This document shows positions 14,376-54,910 of a DNA stretch of 64,000 nt, in pieces. Under the pieces are notes generated by a model. That model searched no databases and had not been told where the DNA came from. It saw only the letters and a program-made list of their open reading frames with translations. Origin of the DNA: Octopus vulgaris (lineage: Eukaryota); contig OX597822.1 in NCBI GenBank assembly GCA_951406725.2, positions 31,930,001-31,994,000 of the forward strand. The letters are read 5' to 3'. The position numbers and the translations under genes were made by a program. Position 1 is the first letter of the stretch. Each line of letters starts with the position of its first letter.

Positions 14376-14412
<37 letters not shown>

Positions 14413-14609
14413 AATAATTCCCTAAAAGGGATATAGACAGTAACTGCTCGATAACATAAGGGACTAAAGCCATCTGAATATGGCTAGGGACAGGGCAGGG
14501 TGGTGGGGGTGTTACTGTTGCATTTAGCCCCAGGCGAACATCGACGTCACCAGAAAGGCTCGACACCGTCACGGTGCCCTAAACCTGCAAAGGGAGGTAA
14601 TTCCCCGAT

Positions 14610-14683
14610 GAAGCGGAAACCACACACGGACCATGGTTTCAAGGTGTATTGCCTATCATCGGCGTGTGGTAGGCCTCCGCTTC
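14610..14683 (-). ncRNA. Type I hammerhead ribozyme motif, array copy 1
   Basis: Reverse complement of 15586-15659. Confidence 0.75.
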
Positions 14684-14969
14684 CTCGACGAATTCTAACT
14701 ATGCAGGATTTCTTATATAGATTTTCAAGCAAAATACATTTGCTGATTTCGAAAATCTGTTCGAAAGCAATAATAATTCTCTAAAAGGGATATAGACAGT
14801 AACTGCTCGATAACATAAGGGACTAAAGCCATCTGAATATGGCTAGGGACAGGGCAGAGTGGTGGGGGTGTTACTGTTGCATTTAGCCCCAGAGCGAACA
14901 TCGACGTCACCAGAAAGGCTCGACACCGTCACGGTGCCCTAAACCTGCAAAGGGAGGTAATTCCCCGAT

Positions 14970-15043
14970 GAAGCGGAAACCACACACGGACCATGGTTTC
15001 AAGGTGTATTGCCTATCATCGGCGTGTGGTAGGCCTCCGCTTC
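14970..15043 (-). ncRNA. Type I hammerhead ribozyme motif, array copy 2
   Basis: Reverse complement of 15586-15659. Confidence 0.75.
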
Positions 15044-15327
15044 CTCGACGAATTCTCACTATGCAGGATTTCTTATATAGATTTTCAAGCAAAATACATT
15101 TGCTGATTTCGAAAATCTGTTCGAAGGCAATAATAATTCTCTAAAAGGGATATAGACAGTAACTGCTCGATAACATAAGGGACTAAAGCCATCTGAATAT
15201 GGCTAGGGACAGGGCAGGGTGGTGGGGGTGTTACTGTTGCATTTAGCCCCAGGCGAACATCGACGTCACCAGAAAGGCTCGACACCGTCACGGTGCCCTA
15301 AACCTGCAAAGGAGGTAATTCCCCGAT

Positions 15328-15401
15328 GAAGCGGAAACCACACACGGACCATGGTTTCAAGGTGTATTGCCTATCATCGGCGTGTGGTAGGCCTCCGCTT
15401 C
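15328..15401 (-). ncRNA. Type I hammerhead ribozyme motif, array copy 3
   Basis: Reverse complement of 15586-15659. Confidence 0.75.
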
Positions 15402-15585
15402 CTCGACGAATTCTCACTATGCCCTAGCCATATTCAGATGGCTTTAGTCCTTATGTTATCGAGCAGTTACTGTCTATATCCCTTTTAGAGAATTATTATT
15501 GCTTTCGAACAGATTTTCGAAATCAGCAAATGTATTTTGCTTGAAAATCTATATAAGAAATCCTGCATAGTGAGAATTCGTCGAG

Positions 15586-15659
15586 GAAGCGGAGGCCTAC
15601 CACACGCCGATGATAGGCAATACACCTTGAAACCATGGTCCGTGTGTGGTTTCCGCTTC
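15586..15659 (+). ncRNA. Type I hammerhead ribozyme motif, array copy 4; predicted cleavage after 15640
   Basis: gaagcgga..cacacg CCGATGA t agg caataca cct t GAAA ccatgg TC cgtgtg..tccgcttc; bipartite stem I; palindromic stem III ACCATGGT. Confidence 0.78.
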
Positions 15660-15938
15660 ATCGGGGAATTACCTCGCTTTGCAGGTTTAGGGCACCGTGA
15701 CGGTGTCGAGCCTTTCTGGTGACGTCGATGTTCGCCTGGGGCTAAATGCAACAGTAACACCACCCTGCCCTGTCCCTAGCCATATTCAGATGGCTTTAGT
15801 CCCTTATGTTATCGAGCAGTTACTGTCTATATCCCTTTTAGAGAATTATTATTGCTTTCGAACAGATTTTCGAAATCAGCAAATGTATTTTGCTTGAAAA
15901 TCTATATAAGAAATCCTGCATAGTGAGAATTCGTCGAG

Positions 15939-16012
15939 GAAGCGGAGGCCTACCACACGCCGATGATAGGCAATACACCTTGAAACCATGGTCCGTGTGT
16001 GGTTTCCGCTTC
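15939..16012 (+). ncRNA. Type I hammerhead ribozyme motif, array copy 5; predicted cleavage after 15993
   Basis: Identical to 15586-15659. Confidence 0.78.
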
Positions 16013-16432
16013 ATCGGGAATTACCTCCCTTTGCAGGTTTAGGGCACCGTGACGGTGTCGAGCCTTTCTGGTGACGTCGATGTTCGCCTGGGGCTAAATG
16101 CAACAGTAACACCCCCACCACCCTGCCCTGTCCCTAGCCATATTCAGATGGCTTTAGTCCCTTATGTTATATATATATATATATATATATATTCATTGAT
16201 AAACCTCGCTAAGATAAATATTTCAATTAACCTGAAGATTGACTGTAACCATAACTCGAATTATTACGAATTGTACTGCCATGAAACGATCGTAGTGTTT
16301 TACTCTTTATCTTTTATTAAACTTTTAATACTTTTGATATATATTTAAAATAATATAAATTAATTAATTTTATATATTGGCTTATGTTTTTCATTGTTTG
16401 ATTTGCCTAAAAGTGGTTTTATCTCTAATTGA

Positions 16433-33590: not shown

Positions 33591-34329
33591 TGATTAAGGA
33601 CCTTGTAAAGATATTCATCTGAACATATTATTCATGTTATTGAATCTTATAACATTTTAATAAAAAATTATAGCATGCACTTTCAGGAGACCAAGTGTGA
33701 ACGACATGGTGACGTATTGAATCAAAGGAATCTAACATTATTAATTCAATGTCTTGCCGCCAGAAACTAAATTTCTTAGTGGGGAGATAACCAAATTTTG
33801 TAATGGTAATTTTTAATAGGTGTGAGATAGCCGGAATGTATCCAGGGGACCAACCAAGTAATCAACCAACCGACCGACCGACCAAGCGACAAACCGAGCA
33901 ACGAACCACCCAAATCGCTAATGCCAAAACGAAATCCATGTTTTTATCAAAAAAACATCCACCAGAAAAAAATAAGACGTCATCAGAATTATAATGAATT
34001 ACATATTAGATACTTTCACATATACCTTTAGATGATATTCGCCGATTCCAAAACACTTCGTTAAAAGCGAAAAGTCTTGTACACAACAGAATAATGATCT
34101 ACACGCAAGGTGACAGAAAGTCTAAAACACCCTCTATTATTCTCTTCTTTTCTTTCACTCTCTTGTCCACTAATGCTATATAATAACTCAGTATGACCGA
34201 ACTTTCAGTATTCCATACTTTTCTTTTTATTCGCCGTTCATTTTTGACATATTTTCCACTCTGTCATTGAATTTTGTGAACATTTAATCATTGAAAAGTA
34301 TTTTCTACTTCGTAATTTTCAATTTTGCT

Positions 34330-34672
34330 TTACTGTTTACATCTCGTTCAGAGATTTATTGTTGCTTGCATACAGTTTTTCGAGATCAGTGACGAAAAGT
34401 TACTGGAAAAACGATATAAAGATTTGCATCGGGACCCCTTTCATCGACAACCGGTGACTGCCGTACGCTGAAGACAGGCAAATACCTAGAAACTGCAGTC
34501 CGTGCGTGTCACCTAGGTTGACGAGGGTGGGATGACCTCCCTTTGCAAATACCATAAGGGCACAGAAAGTGTGTCTAAAGTCAGCTGGAGACGATGATCT
34601 CCTGGGACTACAAGCTACAGTAACACCCACCCTTAGTGGTTAGCCATATTGTGATGGCTAGTATACCTTATA
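34330..34672 (+). mobile_element. Diverged retrozyme-like monomer homologous to the 360-bp array unit
   Basis: Shares colinear blocks (acctccctttgca, agggcac, cctggg.cta, cagtaacaccc, tagccatatt..gatggct); absent from the paralogous host repeat near 40800. Confidence 0.8.
34448..34520 (+). ncRNA. Type I hammerhead ribozyme motif with canonical core; predicted cleavage after 34500
   Basis: caacc ggtgac tgc cgtacg CTGAAGA c agg caaata cct a GAAA ctgcag TC cgtgcg t gtcacc ta ggttg. Confidence 0.82.
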
Positions 34673-35377
34673 TTAAATTTTTTTTAATAAATATTTTTAC
34701 GATTGATAAACAAAATAAAACAAAACGTTGAAACAAGTTTGGGATGTATGTAAATAAAGTTATTTAAAAACAAGTTTTTCAAATTCAGTGCCTTTTCAAA
34801 ATCAAATTATCCTATATTTTCTGCCTCGTAGGAATACGCACCTTACTACCATATATGTATATATCTATAAATATATATGTATATATCTATTTATATCAGA
34901 ACCCATAACAATGTGGTTAGTAAGCAAGCTACTTACCATACTACCACGCACGGACGTAGCTGGGAACCTACAAAAAGTCTCTAAGAGCAGTTAGGTGACT
35001 ATCCTCTACAATCAAGTCCTATTCAAACAAAAACAAATTTGAGCTATGACCTCTCAATAAAACTAGAGCACGCTTGAAACATTAGTCAGAAAGAAGACAA
35101 CTACGACATAAGCTACGTCTTTGGCGTCGTAAGTTAAAGCAGACACGGTTGACTGGGCATGTTGAAACAATCAGTGCTCCGGACGTTTCTGTCATGTGTA
35201 TGTAGGGAATGAACATATGCTTAAGTTCATAACTATTTGTACGCTTCCCGCTACGTCCGTGCGCTAGTGTCACGTGACAGTATATGAGTTGAAAATGCAC
35301 TGACAATAGCTAAAATATATTTTGTTACCTTATTTAAAGTTACTCGATTTTAAAGTTTACACTGATTTTTAAAATAT

Positions 35378-35775
35378 TTGTCTTATGAAGAAAGGCTGAA
35401 GAAGCTCGACCTTTATTCTCTAGAAAAACGTCGCCGCCGTGCTGATCTCATTCTTGCTCACAACATCATTAGCGGAAAGTGTAACCTCTCGAAAGAGCTG
35501 TTCTTCACTCCTGCTCCAGAGCATCGGCTGCGGGGTCACTCCGAAAAGCTCTATCTGCGACGATTTCATCTCAATCGAAGGAGAGGGCTTTCTCCGTCCG
35601 GGTTGCGGATCCGTGGAATAAGCTGCCGGACGAGATAGTGAACGCTCGGTTCAAAGACTCTCTTGACCAGAAATGGCCTGAACTCTTTGCATGAACATCC
35701 TCCTTGTATATAACTCCATGTCCCCCTACATGGCCTTGCTTTTGCTTTTTGAGCCAAAAAAATAACTTAACTTAA
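35378..35775 (+). pseudogene. CR1-like LINE 3' fragment
   Basis: SYEERLKKLDLYSLEKRRRRADLI..RLRGHSEKL..FSVRVADPWNKLP; (taact)n tail. Confidence 0.85.
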
Positions 35776-36035
35776 TATTCAAATAGAAAACATTGCTTAT
35801 ATCGCGGCTGTCTCGCTTCTAACTTGTGTTTCAAGCTTGCTCTAATTTTATTGAGAGTTCGGAGCTCAAATCAGTATTTGTTTGAATAGGACGTCTTTGT
35901 AGAGGATAGTCACACAACTGGAGTTAGAAATTTCTGGAAGGTTCCCCGCTATATCTGTGTGTGAGTAACAAGTCACAATGTTTGTCGTAGTAAGTTAAGG
36001 CTGACACGGTTGACAGACCATGTTGAGACAATCTG

Positions 36036-36262
36036 TTTCTTTATTACCCACAAGGGGCTAAACGCAGAGGGGACAAACAAGCACAGACAAACGGATTAAG
36101 TCGATTACATCGACCCCAGTGCGTAACTGGTACTTAATTCATCGACCCCGAAAGGGATGAAAGGCAAAGTCGACCTCGGCGGAACTTGAACTCAGAACAT
36201 AGCGGCGGACGAAATACGGCTACGCATTTCGCCCGGCGTGCTAACGTTTCTGCCAGCTCGCC
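36036..36262 (-). mobile_element. SINE family B
   Basis: Reverse complement of family B. Confidence 0.85.
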
Positions 36263-36915
36263 CAGTGCTCTGAGTGTTTTTTGTCAAGTGTTTATAGAAG
36301 ATGAACACATGATTAAGTTTATAACCATTTGTACGCTTCCCGCTACGTTCGTGCGTTAGTGTCACGTGACAGTATATTTTTGCGCCTAAAAATGATGCCG
36401 ACACGGTTTAATTTGTCTGGTGGAAGTGTGGGCATAAATCCGAAATACTAAATCATTCTTCTTTATCAATGCACTGGAAGCACTTCAATCCATTTCCGAT
36501 TGAATAAGGAAAGCTTTCTTTAAAATATATAAGCCACAAGTAAATGTCCTTTAATCACACACTAAAAGGAAGAAAAAAATGAATTTCTTCACAAAAAGCA
36601 ACCAGATACAATAGGTATAATTCGAAAAGTTTAGTGAGTTTTCCTGCGGGGAACCTACAAGAAATTTCTAACATCAGCTTTGTGATTAACATCTACAATC
36701 AAGTTATATTCAAACAAATAAATATTTGAGCTCTGAACTCTCAAAACAAATAGGACAAGCTTGAAACACTAGTCAGAAGTAAGACAACTGCGATATAAGC
36801 ACACGTCTGCCTGTTTCAACATTTTGAAAATGAGTGTAAATTTAAAAATCGGGTAACTTTAAATATGGTACCAAATATATTTTAACTATTCTCAGTGCAT
36901 TTTCTACTTATATAT

Positions 36916-37146
36916 ATTTCTTTACAACCCACAAAGGGCTAAACATAGAGGGGACAAACAAGGACAGACAAAGGGATTAAGTCGATTACATCGAACCCAG
37001 TGCGTAACTGGTACTTAATTTATCGACCCCGAAAGGATGAAAGGCAAAGTCGACCTCGGCGGAATTTGAACTTCGAACGTAACGACAGACGAAATACGGC
37101 AAAGCATTTCGCCCGGCATGCTAACGTTTCTGCCAGCTCGCCGCCT
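36916..37146 (-). mobile_element. SINE family B
   Basis: Reverse complement of family B. Confidence 0.85.
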
Positions 37147-37576
37147 TATTCGAAACTATCTTTCTATCTTTCTACTTATATACTCTTACGTTACACTAAG
37201 GCACGGGCGTAGCGGGAAGCGTACAAATGGTTATAAATTTAAGCATGTATTCATTCTCTACAGACAGTTGACAGAAAACGATCTGAGCACTGTTTCATCA
37301 TGGCCAGTCAACTGTGTCAGCTCGAACTTACGGCGCCAAAGACGTAGCCTATGTCGCAGCTGTCTTGTTTCTGACTAATTTTTAACCTTGCTCTATTTTC
37401 ATTGAGAGTTCATAGCTCAAATCTGTATTTGTTTGAATAAGACTTGATTGTGGAGGATAGTCACGTAACTGGTGTTAGGAATTTTTTGTAGGTTCCCCTG
37501 TACAACTGTTCGTGGCTGCATGGTAGGTAGCTTGCTTACCAAACACATTGTTCCAGTTACTGATATAAATAGATAT

Positions 37577-37695
<119 letters not shown>

Positions 37696-38066
37696 TGGTG
37701 GTAAGGTGCGTATTCCTGCGCAGCAGAAAATATAGGATAATTTGTCTTTGAAAATTATTAAATGACAGGGAAAGATAATATCAAAAATGATCGGTGAAAA
37801 AAATATAAAGTATGGAATACTAAAAGTTCGGTCATACTGAGTTATTATAGCATTAGTGGACAAGACAAAGAAAGAAGAGAAGAAAATAAAAAGCGGATGT
37901 TTTAGACTTTCAGTCTTGGGTATAGTTTTCTATTCTAAGCGTACAAGGCTTTTCGCCTTTAACGGAGTGTTTTGAAATCAGAGAATATCATCTGAAGGGT
38001 TATGTGAAAGGATGTAATATGTGTGGCTGCATGGTAAGCAACTTGCTTACCAACCCCATTGTTCCA

Positions 38067-38117
<51 letters not shown>

Positions 38118-38139
38118 CTATGTGTCTATGTATGTGTAT

Positions 38140-38540
38140 ACTCTTTTACTCTTTTACTTGTTTCAGTCATTTGACTGCGGCCATGCTGGAGCACCGCCTT
38201 TAGTCGAGCAAATCGAACCCGGAACTTATTCTTATTATATCGGTCTTTTTTGCCGAACCGCTAAGTGACGGGGACGTAAACACACCACCATCGGTTGTCA
38301 GGCAATGCTAAGGGGACAAACACAGACATACAAACACACACACGCATACATACATATATATATATATACATATATACGACAGGTTTCTTTCAGTTTCCGT
38401 CTACCAAATCCACTCACAAGGCATTGGTCGGCTCAGGGCTATAGCAGAAGACACTTGCCCAAGATGCCACGCAGTGGGACTGAACCCGGAACCATGTGGT
38501 TGGTTAGCAAGCTACTTACCACACAGCCACTCCTGCGCCT
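38140..38540 (-). mobile_element. SINE family A
   Basis: Reverse complement of family A. Confidence 0.9.
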
Positions 38541-41500
38541 ATGTGTATATATACATAATAAGTTAAATGGTATATAAATATATACACATATACATATATA
38601 TATGTACATACCTACATATATATATGTATATATACATGCATATATGGGTACAGGACATCAAAAAAAAAAACTTTGCACACGATGAGAAACGAAAATATAA
38701 AAACAAAAACACAGAAACGAACTTTTTTTCAATCAATGAAAAAAAACAGAGTACAAGACATACAACACAAGGAATATTCCCCTTCTTCAGTTGTCCCTGT
38801 TTCATCTACTCCGCGTTTAGGAAAGTGCGTATGTATATGCAGGAGAAAATTTAGGATAATTTGTTTTTGAAAAGGCACTGAATTTGAAAAACTTGTTGTT
38901 TTTAAATAAATTTATTCACATATATCCCAAACTAGTTAAAGCATTTTTTTTGTTCATGAATGGTACAAATATGTATAAACAATTTTATTTTAACAGAATT
39001 GAAAATTCGGATGTAGAATGCACTTTTAAATGGTTAAATGTTCACGGAATTCAATGACAGGGGTAGATAATATCAAAAATGATCGGCGAGCAATATAAAA
39101 AGTATAGATTACTAACGTTCGGTCATACCGAACTATTATAGAATACGTGCACATGACAGAAATAGGAAAGAAGTGAACAAAAAAAAAATTTTTTTCTTTT
39201 GTGTGTAATTCTTTAATCCGTTGCGTACAGGGGTTTTCGCTATTAACGAAGTGTTTTGGAGTCAGAGTATATCTTCTAAAGCGATATGTAAAAAGATTTA
39301 ATATGTGATTCGTTATAATTCCGATGAAGTCATATTCTTTCTATTGGATGTTTTTCATCAAAAAATAGTTTTTGCTTTGGCGTTAGTGCTTTCGTTGGTT
39401 TGTCGGTTGGTTGTTTGGGTGGTTGATTGAGTCCCTGAGTACTTTTTGGTTATCTCACACCCATTAAAAATCACCATTACAAAATTGGATTACCTCCCCA
39501 CTAAAAAATCGAGCTTGTGGCGACAAGACACTGAATTAATAAATGTGAGATCCTTTTGATTCAATACTCCAACATATGTCCATGACGTTTAGCCTCCTAA
39601 ATAGGCATGATATAATTTGTTATAAAAATGTTATTAGACTCAATAAGATGCTTAATTTTTTTCAGTTTTCGTTTTTAGTAATTATTTCAGTTTTCATGTT
39701 AATTGCTTTCCATTTTTTTGTTTTGTTTTAAGTGTTAAACACTTTCTTTAGTTGTGGGAGATAACCGAAAGGAATGATATTTTTCATTAAACATGAGAAG
39801 TCAACCAAACAGAAAACCAAACTTGACCAATAAAAAGCAGGTTCTTTATCAAAATAGTGACGTCACGAAACGTAATTACTCATCAAAACCTGTTCCTATG
39901 TACAGGGAACCGGTACTATTTGGTTATCTCACCCCTATTTAAAAATTGGGTTAACTCCCCCAGTTGTATGAAAAATATCGGAAATTTTGTTTATCTCACC
40001 TACATAAAGATATTGTTTAACCCTTAATAAGACAATAGAAAAAATGAAGAAATAGAATATAAATGAAAATTTAAAAAAAATTAATAAATACAACAACTGA
40101 CAAAAATATTCATGTTATTGAATCTAATAACATTTTTATATCAAATCATGCCGTACCTACTGAGTAGGTCAATCGTCAACAGCATGTTGAAGTATTGAAT
40201 CAAAGGGATCTAACAATTTTAATTCAATCTCATCTCCACAAACTCAATTTTTTAGTGGGGAGGTAACCTAATTTTTAATGTTGATTTTTTAATAGAGTGA
40301 GATAACCAAAATGTACCTAGGGAACAAACCAAGCAATCAACCAACCAGCCAATCAACCAACCAGCCGACTGACCGAACGAACAACAAACCAACGGATATA
40401 CTAATGCCAGAACAAAATCTATTTTCTTATCAAAAACATCCACCGGAAAGAATAAGACGTCATCAGAATTATAACGAATCAAATATTACATCCTTTCACG
40501 TATCCCTTCAGAAGATATTCTCTGATTACAAAAGACTCCGTTAAAGGCAAAAAGCCCTGTGCGCGACGGAATAATGAACTACATGCAAGGGGACAGAAAC
40601 TGTAAAATAATCCCTCTTTCTTATTCTCTTCTTTCTTTTTATTCTTTCCTTGTCTTGTCCCCTAATGCTATAATAACTCAGTATGACCGAACTTTCAGTA
40701 TTATTTCATTCGCCGATCAGTTTTGATATTATCTACACCTGTCATTGAGTTTTGTGAACATTTAATCAATTAAAGTGTTTTCTGCTTTGTAATTTTAAAT
40801 TCTTTTAAAATAAAATTGTTTATAAATATTTGTACCATTCATGAACAAAAAAAAAATGCTTAAACTAGTTTGGGATGTATGTAAATAAATTTATTTAAAA
40901 CAAGTTTTTCAAACTCAGTGCCTTTTCAAAAACAAATTATCCTATAATTTCTCCTGCGTATTCATATGCACTTTCCTAACACACACACACACACAGACAC
41001 ACACATGTATATTTATATCAGAGCCCGGAACAATGTAAGCAAGCTACTTCTCAAATTCAGGTGCATTTTCAAAAACAAATCATCCTATATTTTTTCCTGC
41101 GTGGAAATACATCGCTTCTTTACACACATACACACATACACATATATATACATACATACATAAACACTCCAATGCCCATCTGCCACTCATTCAAAGAGGG
41201 AGAGAGAGAATAATGCATATATTGTGTTGGTAATCTTGCAAGCAAAACTCATCAAATACAGAATCTCGTACGTAAAAACAGGAAATGGTGGAGATTCAAA
41301 AAGAAAAAAAAAACGAAAAAAAAAAACTAGATAGTCCATAGGACAAAAAAATTGTGAGCCGAGTAATTTCGGTCATGAACTAAAATCTGTTGTTGACGTT
41401 TTTCTGAAGTATTGTATGGGAGAATTAAATTTAACTGAGGTAACCAAACTACTTATAATATACCAGTTTCGTTCTTTCTATTTTTGTGATCTTGTAATTC

Positions 41501-54353: not shown

Positions 54354-54515
54354 CTGTTTTCGTTCCAGCACACGATCTCAGATCAAGTCACTTGCTATGC
54401 AAGTACATCTCTGTAACTATATATATATTTATATATATATATATATGTATATTGGTAAAAACAGTAAGATAACAAAAGAAAGAAAGAGACCTCAATATTA
54501 TGTAAATAGAGGAAA

Positions 54516-54910
54516 TCTTTATATATAAAAGTGAGGTTGTGTGCCTGTCTCCTACGATTTAGATTCCTAACTACTCCCACATTTTGCGGTGTAGTTTTAC
54601 CAAAACCGGGTATCTTATAGTCGTGATTCATATCGAGACCGTCTGGGTATTAGCGCGCGTCTACGATGAGTCTACGATTTAAAAAAAAATTTACCATCAA
54701 TTTTTCCCATTTTTAATCCATTTTTGACATATATAAGGGAAGTAACTCTCTAAAATTTATTATTAAATCTCAGAACGTAAAAAGCTACAGTAACACCCCT
54801 CCCCCTTTGTGGTTAGCCATATTGAGATGGCTATTATACTTTACATCTCTAAAAATGCTTATATAATTATTTCCCTTACAAACCCGAGCAACGCCGGGCG
54901 ATACTGCTAG
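54516..54910 (+). mobile_element. Non-autonomous Helitron
   Basis: 5' a|TCtttatatataaaag; 3' hairpin cccgagcaacgccggg followed by CTAG|t. Confidence 0.8.

What the first reader, a model, noticed from the sequence alone, without database searches (positions are those of the whole stretch)
34330..34672. Diverged retrozyme monomer gives covariation support and evidence of mobility
Seen: colinear homology with the 360-bp unit, with compensatory changes in stem I (cacacg/cgtgtg to cgtacg/cgtgcg; outer gaagcgga/tccgcttc to ggtgac/gtcacc) and stem III (ACCATGGT to ACTGCAGT). The core is canonical CTGAAGA, and the base of stem II is again a mismatch (C.A versus U.U). It interrupts a host repeat whose paralogs near 39000 and 40800 lack it. 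Inference: two subfamilies under selection for the fold, with an unpaired 10.1-11.1 position as a family trait.
Basis: partly seen in the sequence, partly recalled or inferred. Interest (0 to 1): 0.72.

Follow-up and report, generated by a model that had tools for sequence, protein, structure and literature searches.

The report
Retrozyme family with mismatched hammerhead pair
This is one slightly clipped copy of a small non-coding jumping repeat that carries a predicted self-cutting RNA motif and was likely pasted in by a Penelope-type enzyme; five related repeat families in this genome keep the motif's fold but carry three different versions of one normally fixed base pair, which gives a ready natural test of how much that pair matters.

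Summary
Real, and mostly as described. 34330-34674 is a 345-nt monomer of a dispersed ~354-nt repeat (family B), 67% like the window's 360-bp arrays (family A), with a type I hammerhead predicted to cut after 34500. Genome searches found three more relatives (C, D, E). Across the five families 11 of 11 core positions are invariant (41% outside the ribozyme), N7 takes all four bases, and 18 of 18 helix pairs are kept, several by double changes. The copy sits in an older repeat that is empty in 25 of 29 paralog loci, and B copies end at two fixed points in AT-rich DNA, the Penelope footprint. The 'unpaired 10.1-11.1 family trait' is only partly right: B, C, E have C.A, A has U.U, but young family D has the canonical G-C, most parsimoniously regained. 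U.U is already known (axolotl retrozyme, cleaves); I found no paper on C.A. Cleavage is untested; 0 of 29 B copies start at the cut.

The parts
34330..34674 (+). Family B retrozyme monomer, 345 of about 354 nt; 5' end clipped by about 9 nt, 3' end at the family's first fixed end point
34375..34412 (+). Conserved 5' hairpin-on-stem with double changes between families
   Evidence: RNAalifold pairs 47-53/78-85 and 59-65/71-77; fold
34453..34513 (+). Extended type I hammerhead: outer helix 34453-58/34508-13, 3-nt bulge 34459-61, helix I 34462-67/34501-06, unpaired U 34507
34468..34474 (+). Core strand CTGAAGA (C3-A9; numbering recalled)
34475..34488 (+). Helix II: C10.1.A11.1 mismatch (34475, 34488), three pairs 34476-78/34485-87, loop CAAATA 34479-84 (same letters as loop II of the Rfam RF00163 consensus)
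34489..34500 (+). GAAA, perfectly palindromic 8-nt helix III (34492-34499) and C17; predicted cut after 34500
34641..34660 (+). Conserved hairpin just before the first fixed 3' end; candidate recognition signal for the reverse transcriptase (inferred)
33616..34329 (.). Left part of the older host repeat (70-80% identical to its paralogs)
34675..34934 (.). Right part of the host repeat; junction blunt, at most a 2-nt TT duplication or microhomology
38818..39656 (-). Host-repeat paralog without the insertion
40094..41049 (+). Host-repeat paralog without the insertion
14409..16170 (.). Family A: two head-to-head arrays of the 360-bp unit (junction 15422), both outer ends in (TA)n; core CCGATGA, U.U at 10.1-11.1
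54782..54846 (+). About 65-nt fragment of the B-type 3' end, stopping at the first fixed end point, inside a young Helitron-like repeat

Best explanation
This is a nearly unit-length copy of a dispersed, protein-less ~354-nt repeat with a conserved type I hammerhead fold (a non-LTR retrozyme), likely written into an AT-rich spot of an older repeat by a Penelope-like reverse transcriptase and predicted to self-cleave after 34500 mainly when two units pair. Shown: the repeat family, its five related lineages, conservation of the core and helices, the empty paralog sites, two fixed 3' ends about 47 nt apart, frequent inverted 5'-truncated arms. Inferred: (1) tandem loci are transcribed into multimers; (2) two hammerheads pair through the palindromic helix III and cut, monomers circularise; (3) a Penelope protein nicks AT-rich DNA and starts copying at one of two internal sites, on a circle or an uncut multimer, since copies run through the cut site; (4) the C.A at 10.1-11.1 is a tolerated, weakened pair rescued by the loop II/helix I contact and by dimer formation; it is the common state of the clade (B, C, E), A has U.U, and D most likely regained G-C. 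This lone copy is probably a dead end (no tandem partner, about 2.5% private changes).
For: Homology A-B beyond chance. B: 41 near-full copies at 91-96% among 40 scored of 3207 first-look candidates; 351 exact core matches, 0 for the reversed control. Head-to-tail junctions without any ORF. Five families 51-80% identical: core 11 of 11 invariant versus 100 of 245 columns outside (p about 5e-5 to 8e-5), N7 = T,A,T,C,G, 18 of 18 helix pairs kept in family majorities. On 18 chosen copies helices I, II, III are 99-100% paired, 9 of 20 pairs have a double change, slid controls 16-49% paired. Three different perfect palindromes in helix III, duplex -10.7 to -11.2 kcal/mol; monomer helix III probability about 0. 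Circular monomers fold at z -4.8 to -7.0. 71 of 78 B arms end at two fixed points (42 and 29), 83% AT downstream, 23 of 55 loci have both orientations, matching the tail, partial-tandem and inverted structures described for PLEs (PMC8557442 passages; PMC11167929). Intact RT plus GIY-YIG ORFs exist in the genome. 25 of 29 host-repeat loci have the two flanks adjacent (three of these are the same window paralog). Tree without the ribozyme columns: (C,D,E) versus (B,A) 100/100, two changes of state.
Against: No cleavage, transcript or circle shown. 0 of 29 B copies chosen on their downstream half start at the cut site (nearest -3, at an inversion). No autonomous partner identified: neither A nor B matched the terminal repeats in 46 GIY-YIG loci, apart from an independent nearby insertion; only 150 of 6136 candidates were scored. 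Predicted monomer folds favour inactive alternatives by 6-10 kcal/mol. In the 2026 preprint 8 of 9 Xenopus dimer elements did not cleave in vitro. The number of pairs with a double change did not beat the shuffle control clearly (42 of 500), and copies were hand-picked and related. D's position inside (C,D,E) is weak (80/59), the tree is unrooted, D shares helix II letters with A and B rather than C and E, and one B copy carries the C/E helix II, so recombination may blur the 'regained' reading.
Confidence: 0.82

Rival explanations
1. B units are solo terminal repeats (pLTRs) or 3' fragments of an autonomous Penelope-like element, not a self-standing retrozyme.
For: Same ends and inversions as PLEs; B is mostly monomeric (5 of 78 arms exceed 1.5 units); 24 of 57 Xenopus retrozyme families match known repeats, 21 of the 22 being PLEs (preprint).
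Against: Units join head to tail with no ORF between; no RT or GIY-YIG motif in the flanks of 60 loci; no match to the terminal repeats in 46 GIY-YIG loci; sister families A and D form tandem arrays.
Confidence: 0.08
2. The C.A hammerhead no longer cuts at a useful rate; the fold is kept as a handle for the Penelope protein or as part of a stable RNA, and copies come from uncut multimers.
For: No copy starts at the cut (0 of 29); ribozyme-dead mutants of the anole PLE still insert in vitro (PMC11167929); U4C, which lowers activity in vitro (PMC3088659), is in 30 of 68 B copies.
Against: All 11 catalytic positions are invariant while N7, the free one, takes four bases; helix III stays palindromic through three sequences; a U.U retrozyme cleaves; D with G-C is nested among C.A families.
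Confidence: 0.09
3. The apparent covariation reflects relatedness and chance in a decaying satellite, without selection on RNA.
For: Few independent events (five families); shuffle control ignores relatedness.
Against: 18 of 18 pairs kept across families 51-80% identical, double changes in all three helices and in hairpins outside the ribozyme (23 of 64 predicted pairs); core invariance.
Confidence: 0.01

Closest known systems
Metazoan non-LTR retrozymes (Cervera and de la Pena 2020, PMC7229834: passages, sections 14 and 15), closest in kind axolotl Rtz353 with HHR_Amex2 and the 350-390-bp mussel repeats
   Same: About 350-nt non-coding unit, low GC (43-46%), one type I hammerhead per unit, two-pair helix III with palindromic tetraloop, mismatch at the base of helix II, coexistence of canonical and mismatched families in one genome, PLEs in the same genome
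   Different: Mismatch is C.A rather than U.U in B, C, E; mismatched and canonical forms are close relatives here (75-80% identical); B is mostly dispersed monomers; no RNA, circle or cleavage shown here
Retrozymes as non-autonomous PLE derivatives (Li, Clavereau, Pollet, bioRxiv 10.64898/2026.07.22.740005; parts 1-3 of 5 read)
   Same: Monomers, dimers and multimers dispersed genome-wide with PLEs present
   Different: No sequence link to a PLE terminal repeat found here; the link rests on insertion structure
EN+ Penelope-like elements (PMC11167929 parts 1-2 of 4; PMC8557442 passages; PMC4209133 parts 1-2 of 4)
   Same: Two fixed 3' ends defining a tail, AT-rich or (TA)n targets, partial tandems, inverted 5'-truncated arms, hammerhead
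   Different: No ORF; tail about 47 nt versus 30-40 bp; hammerhead is the canonical extended type, not the minimal PLE type with conserved G10.1-C11.1
Rfam RF00163 Hammerhead_1 and natural core variants (PMC3088659 passages and section 8)
   Same: Core, helix lengths and loop II letters; U10.1.U11.1 and U4C are reported natural variants
   Different: C10.1.A11.1 not mentioned in the text seen; the window copy is missed by Rfam while D is hit

Membership tests
Type I hammerhead ribozyme | Core CUGANGA, GAAA, NUH with helices I-III, open at helix I | tested here: met
Type I hammerhead ribozyme | G10.1-C11.1 first pair of helix II (highly conserved, natural exceptions known) | tested here: not met
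   C.A in 64 of 68 B copies and C in 97, A in 100 of the first 100 of 351 matches; met in sister family D; U.U exceptions
Type I hammerhead ribozyme | Match to Rfam RF00163 | tested here: not met
   no hit for 34300-34700 at E 10; D copy 32.2 bits, below gathering 34
Type I hammerhead ribozyme | Loop II / helix I tertiary contact | tested here: inconclusive
   U-led 3-nt bulge, unpaired U after helix I and last A of loop II are invariant in 18 of 18; their role is recalled from the Schistosoma structure, paper not held
Type I hammerhead ribozyme | Self-cleavage after N17 | not testable with these tools
   needs in vitro assay; no genomic trace
Non-LTR retrozyme | 150-450-bp non-coding unit with one type I hammerhead | tested here: met
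   351-354 nt, no ORF
Non-LTR retrozyme | Tandem copies and many dispersed loci | tested here: met
   B dimer at L006/L007 and partial tandems; A and D arrays; the window copy itself is a monomer
Non-LTR retrozyme | Highly self-paired monomer | tested here: met
   circular MFE z -5.5 for B, 63% paired; linear z -5.43
Non-LTR retrozyme | Expressed as circular and linear monomer RNA | not testable with these tools
   only contigs of runs not on record as RNA were offered
PLE-mobilised element | Two fixed 3' ends (tail), AT-rich target, partial tandem and inverted truncated arms | tested here: met
Autonomous PLE or its pLTR | Adjacent RT plus GIY-YIG ORF | tested here: not met
   (60 retrozyme loci, 46 GIY-YIG loci)

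The most novel reading that the evidence does not exclude
In one retrozyme clade the hammerhead's most conserved helix II pair has spent most of its history as a C.A mismatch, passed to U.U in one young family and re-evolved canonical G-C in another, while an autonomous Penelope element of the same genome carries U.U and U4/C4 in its own hammerhead. This would mean cleavage rate is a tunable trait of these parasites, with weak ribozymes switched on by dimerisation or by the Penelope protein, and B, D and A would be a natural allelic series to test it.
Probability: 0.3. Interest if true: 0.62.

Novelty: new variant of a known kind. Interest (0 to 1): 0.42.

Why it matters
Whether hammerhead cleavage matters for retrozymes and Penelope elements is open (ribozyme-dead anole PLE RNA still inserts in vitro; 8 of 9 Xenopus elements did not cut). 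Here five related families show that the catalytic core is under selection and offer natural G-C, C.A and U.U versions on near-identical scaffolds, so the cost of the pair can be measured directly. It also shows that searches demanding G10.1-C11.1, and Rfam, miss abundant animal hammerhead families. The element class itself is known.

Tried and rejected
Rfam on the window and on the element: no hammerhead hit. Search for an autonomous partner: no link in 46 GIY-YIG loci; the B-like stretch 600 nt from one PLE is a separate insertion in (TA)n. The high-depth partner of the 3' end in sequencing contigs proved to be a Helitron-like repeat holding a retrozyme fragment, not a PLE. Sequencing runs: no RNA holder listed; contigs of four runs under four organism codes cover the element, and the head-to-tail joint appears in guessed-RNA and other runs alike and equals the genomic tandem junction, so it says nothing on circles or expression. 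No contig spanning an empty orthologous site; not evidence either way. Cleavage footprint: 0 of 142 arms start within 2 nt of the cut, but only the 29 B loci were chosen so as to allow it. Idea that C10.1 locks the cleavage triplet in an alternative helix (suggested by RNAalifold): rejected, probability at most 0.09 in single folds. Pattern for relatives with other helix III palindromes: 1 match, which led to family E. Literature on C.A: searches gave no paper describing it; Lunse et al. 2017 and Martick and Scott 2006 were not held; no supplements were read, and those of PMC3088659 (S6-S8, Dataset S1) and PMC7229834 (S4) could show such a variant.

Full report
1. Observation. It aligns colinearly with the 360-bp unit of the arrays at 14409-16170 at 66-67% identity. 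The alignment score is 80 against at most 25 in 500 shuffles, and the parts 5' of, within and 3' of the ribozyme each beat all 500 shuffles. The hammerhead has core CTGAAGA (34468-74), C and A at 10.1 and 11.1, a 3-pair helix II with loop CAAATA, GAAA, an 8-nt palindromic helix III and C17 at 34500 (position numbering recalled). The paralogs near 39000 and 40800 run across the site without the insert.

2. The family. The genome (G000, 2.8 Gb) gave 3207 first-look candidates for this sequence; the 40 scored yield 41 near-full copies at 91-96%, and a core pattern has 351 exact matches against 0 for the control. I call this family B and the 360-bp repeat family A (708 candidates, 98% identical, long arrays; 1229 exact core matches). 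Three more relatives turned up: C, D and E. Mean identity within families: A 0.97, D 0.98, B 0.93, C 0.90, E 0.84; between families 0.51-0.80. B is mostly monomeric or partial tandem (5 of 78 arms over 1.5 units); hammerheads per 3-kb locus average 4.9 for A, 2.2 for D, 1.0 for B (overlapping loci, not independent).

3. Selection on the fold. Using the majority letter of each family, 11 of 11 catalytic positions are invariant against 100 of 245 columns outside the ribozyme (p about 5e-5 to 8e-5); N7 reads T, A, T, C, G; 18 of 18 helix pairs are kept. On 18 hand-picked, related copies, helices I, II and III are 99-100% paired, 9 of 20 pairs show a double change, and slid controls pair 16-49%; percentage paired and covariation score beat all 500 shuffles, but the count of pairs with double changes did not clearly (42 of 500). 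Outside the ribozyme 23 of 64 predicted pairs (whole unit, 15 copies) have a double change. Monomer helix III has a predicted probability near 0, whereas each palindrome forms an 8-bp duplex of about -11 kcal/mol, which points to dimeric cleavage as described for such motifs (PMC4209133 parts 1-2).

4. The 10.1-11.1 position. Distinct copies in my loci: B 64 C.A, 3 C.C, 1 A.A of 68; C 19 C.A of 26; E 18 C.A of 23; A 30 U.U of 30; D 17 G-C of 17. D was found with a pattern that demanded G and C, so its 17 of 17 is circular; what holds is that a distinct young family with G-C exists (80 of the first 100 listed of 668 matches; control 8). In a tree built without the ribozyme columns (52 copies chosen from those in hand) C, D, E stand apart from B, A at 100/100 and two changes explain the states (similar). 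G-C in D is thus most simply a regain, but the tree is unrooted, D's sister is uncertain (80/59), and helix II letters suggest recombination. U.U at this place is known from natural hammerheads (PMC3088659 section 8) and from axolotl HHR_Amex2, which cleaves 22% in an hour as a monomer and better as a dimer (PMC7229834 section 15). U4C is known too. I found no description of C.A (searches; two key papers not held; no supplements read). An autonomous PLE family in this genome has U.U and U4 or C4 in its own hammerhead (5 of 5 loci where the motif was found; ORF domains), with no other likeness to the retrozymes.

5. Mobility. In 25 of 29 host-repeat loci the two flanks lie within -31 to +6 nt of each other (three rows are the same window paralog); the junction is blunt with at most a 2-nt TT overlap. 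The host copy is 70-80% like its paralogs while the insert is 96% like its best relative, so the insert is younger. 71 of 78 B arms end at two fixed points about 47 nt apart, followed by DNA that is 83% AT, and 23 of 55 loci hold both orientations. These are the tail, (TA)n bias, partial tandems and inverted arms of PLE insertions (PMC8557442 passages), and the two ends match the two internal start sites shown for the anole PLE enzyme (PMC11167929 parts 1-2). Intact RT plus GIY-YIG ORFs are present, but I could not name the partner (46 loci examined; 150 of 6136 candidates scored).

6. What is not shown. No RNA, circle or cleavage. None of 29 B copies chosen on their downstream half starts at the cut; copies, including this one, run through it, so the template was a circle or an uncut multimer. 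This fits the model but also fits a non-cutting ribozyme; the 2026 preprint saw cleavage in 1 of 9 elements (parts 1-3 of 5).

7. Verdict. A real member of a known class, the non-LTR retrozymes, with a hammerhead variant (C.A) that I did not find described and a natural G-C / C.A / U.U series among close relatives. Other papers seen as passages only: PMC6155905, PMC9901934, PMC2837043, PMC6765202. Earlier scan notes describe family A and the Penelope footprint on other DNA of this genome; look-ups by sequence for B and D returned nothing. Interest 0.42.

Noticed in passing
window 54505-54910: Young repeat (99% identical copies, 1982 first-look candidates) with Helitron hallmarks (5' TC, 3' hairpin plus CTAG; hallmarks recalled, 5' boundary unsure). 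All 29 copies examined carry a ~65-nt retrozyme fragment ending exactly at the first fixed 3' end: a truncated retrozyme insertion amplified by another transposon, giving 50-100 times more contig depth over 34608-34663.
   Followed up: partly
B, C, D, E loci; 56-70 nt upstream of the cut (window about 34431-34445): 5' truncation points cluster here: B 10 of 34 (p 0.004), C 3 of 20, E 4 of 16, D 2 of 7; window chosen after seeing B. Could be a transcription start, a stall at the base of the long stem, or microhomology with AT-rich targets.
   Followed up: partly
L127:3800-3845, L131, L133, L134, L094: Autonomous RT plus GIY-YIG family whose terminal repeat has a hammerhead with U.U at 10.1-11.1, U4 or C4, and a palindromic helix III.
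   Followed up: partly
L121-L126: Young PLE family with intact 781-aa open frames in many copies; my hammerhead scan found no convincing motif in its terminal repeat.
   Followed up: no
L012, L325, L347: Small B sublineage with C at 11.1 (C.C), a half-way state between C.A and G-C.
   Followed up: partly
L259, L273, L274, L285: Another canonical hammerhead family (about 14 of the first 100 matches), unrelated to A-D by blastn for the two loci tested.
   Followed up: no
window 33616-41049: Local cluster of at least four copies of the old host repeat in both orientations; class not determined.
   Followed up: no
window 35390-35600: Looks like the 3' end of a CR1/L2-type LINE reading frame (motif recalled, not tested).
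   Followed up: no
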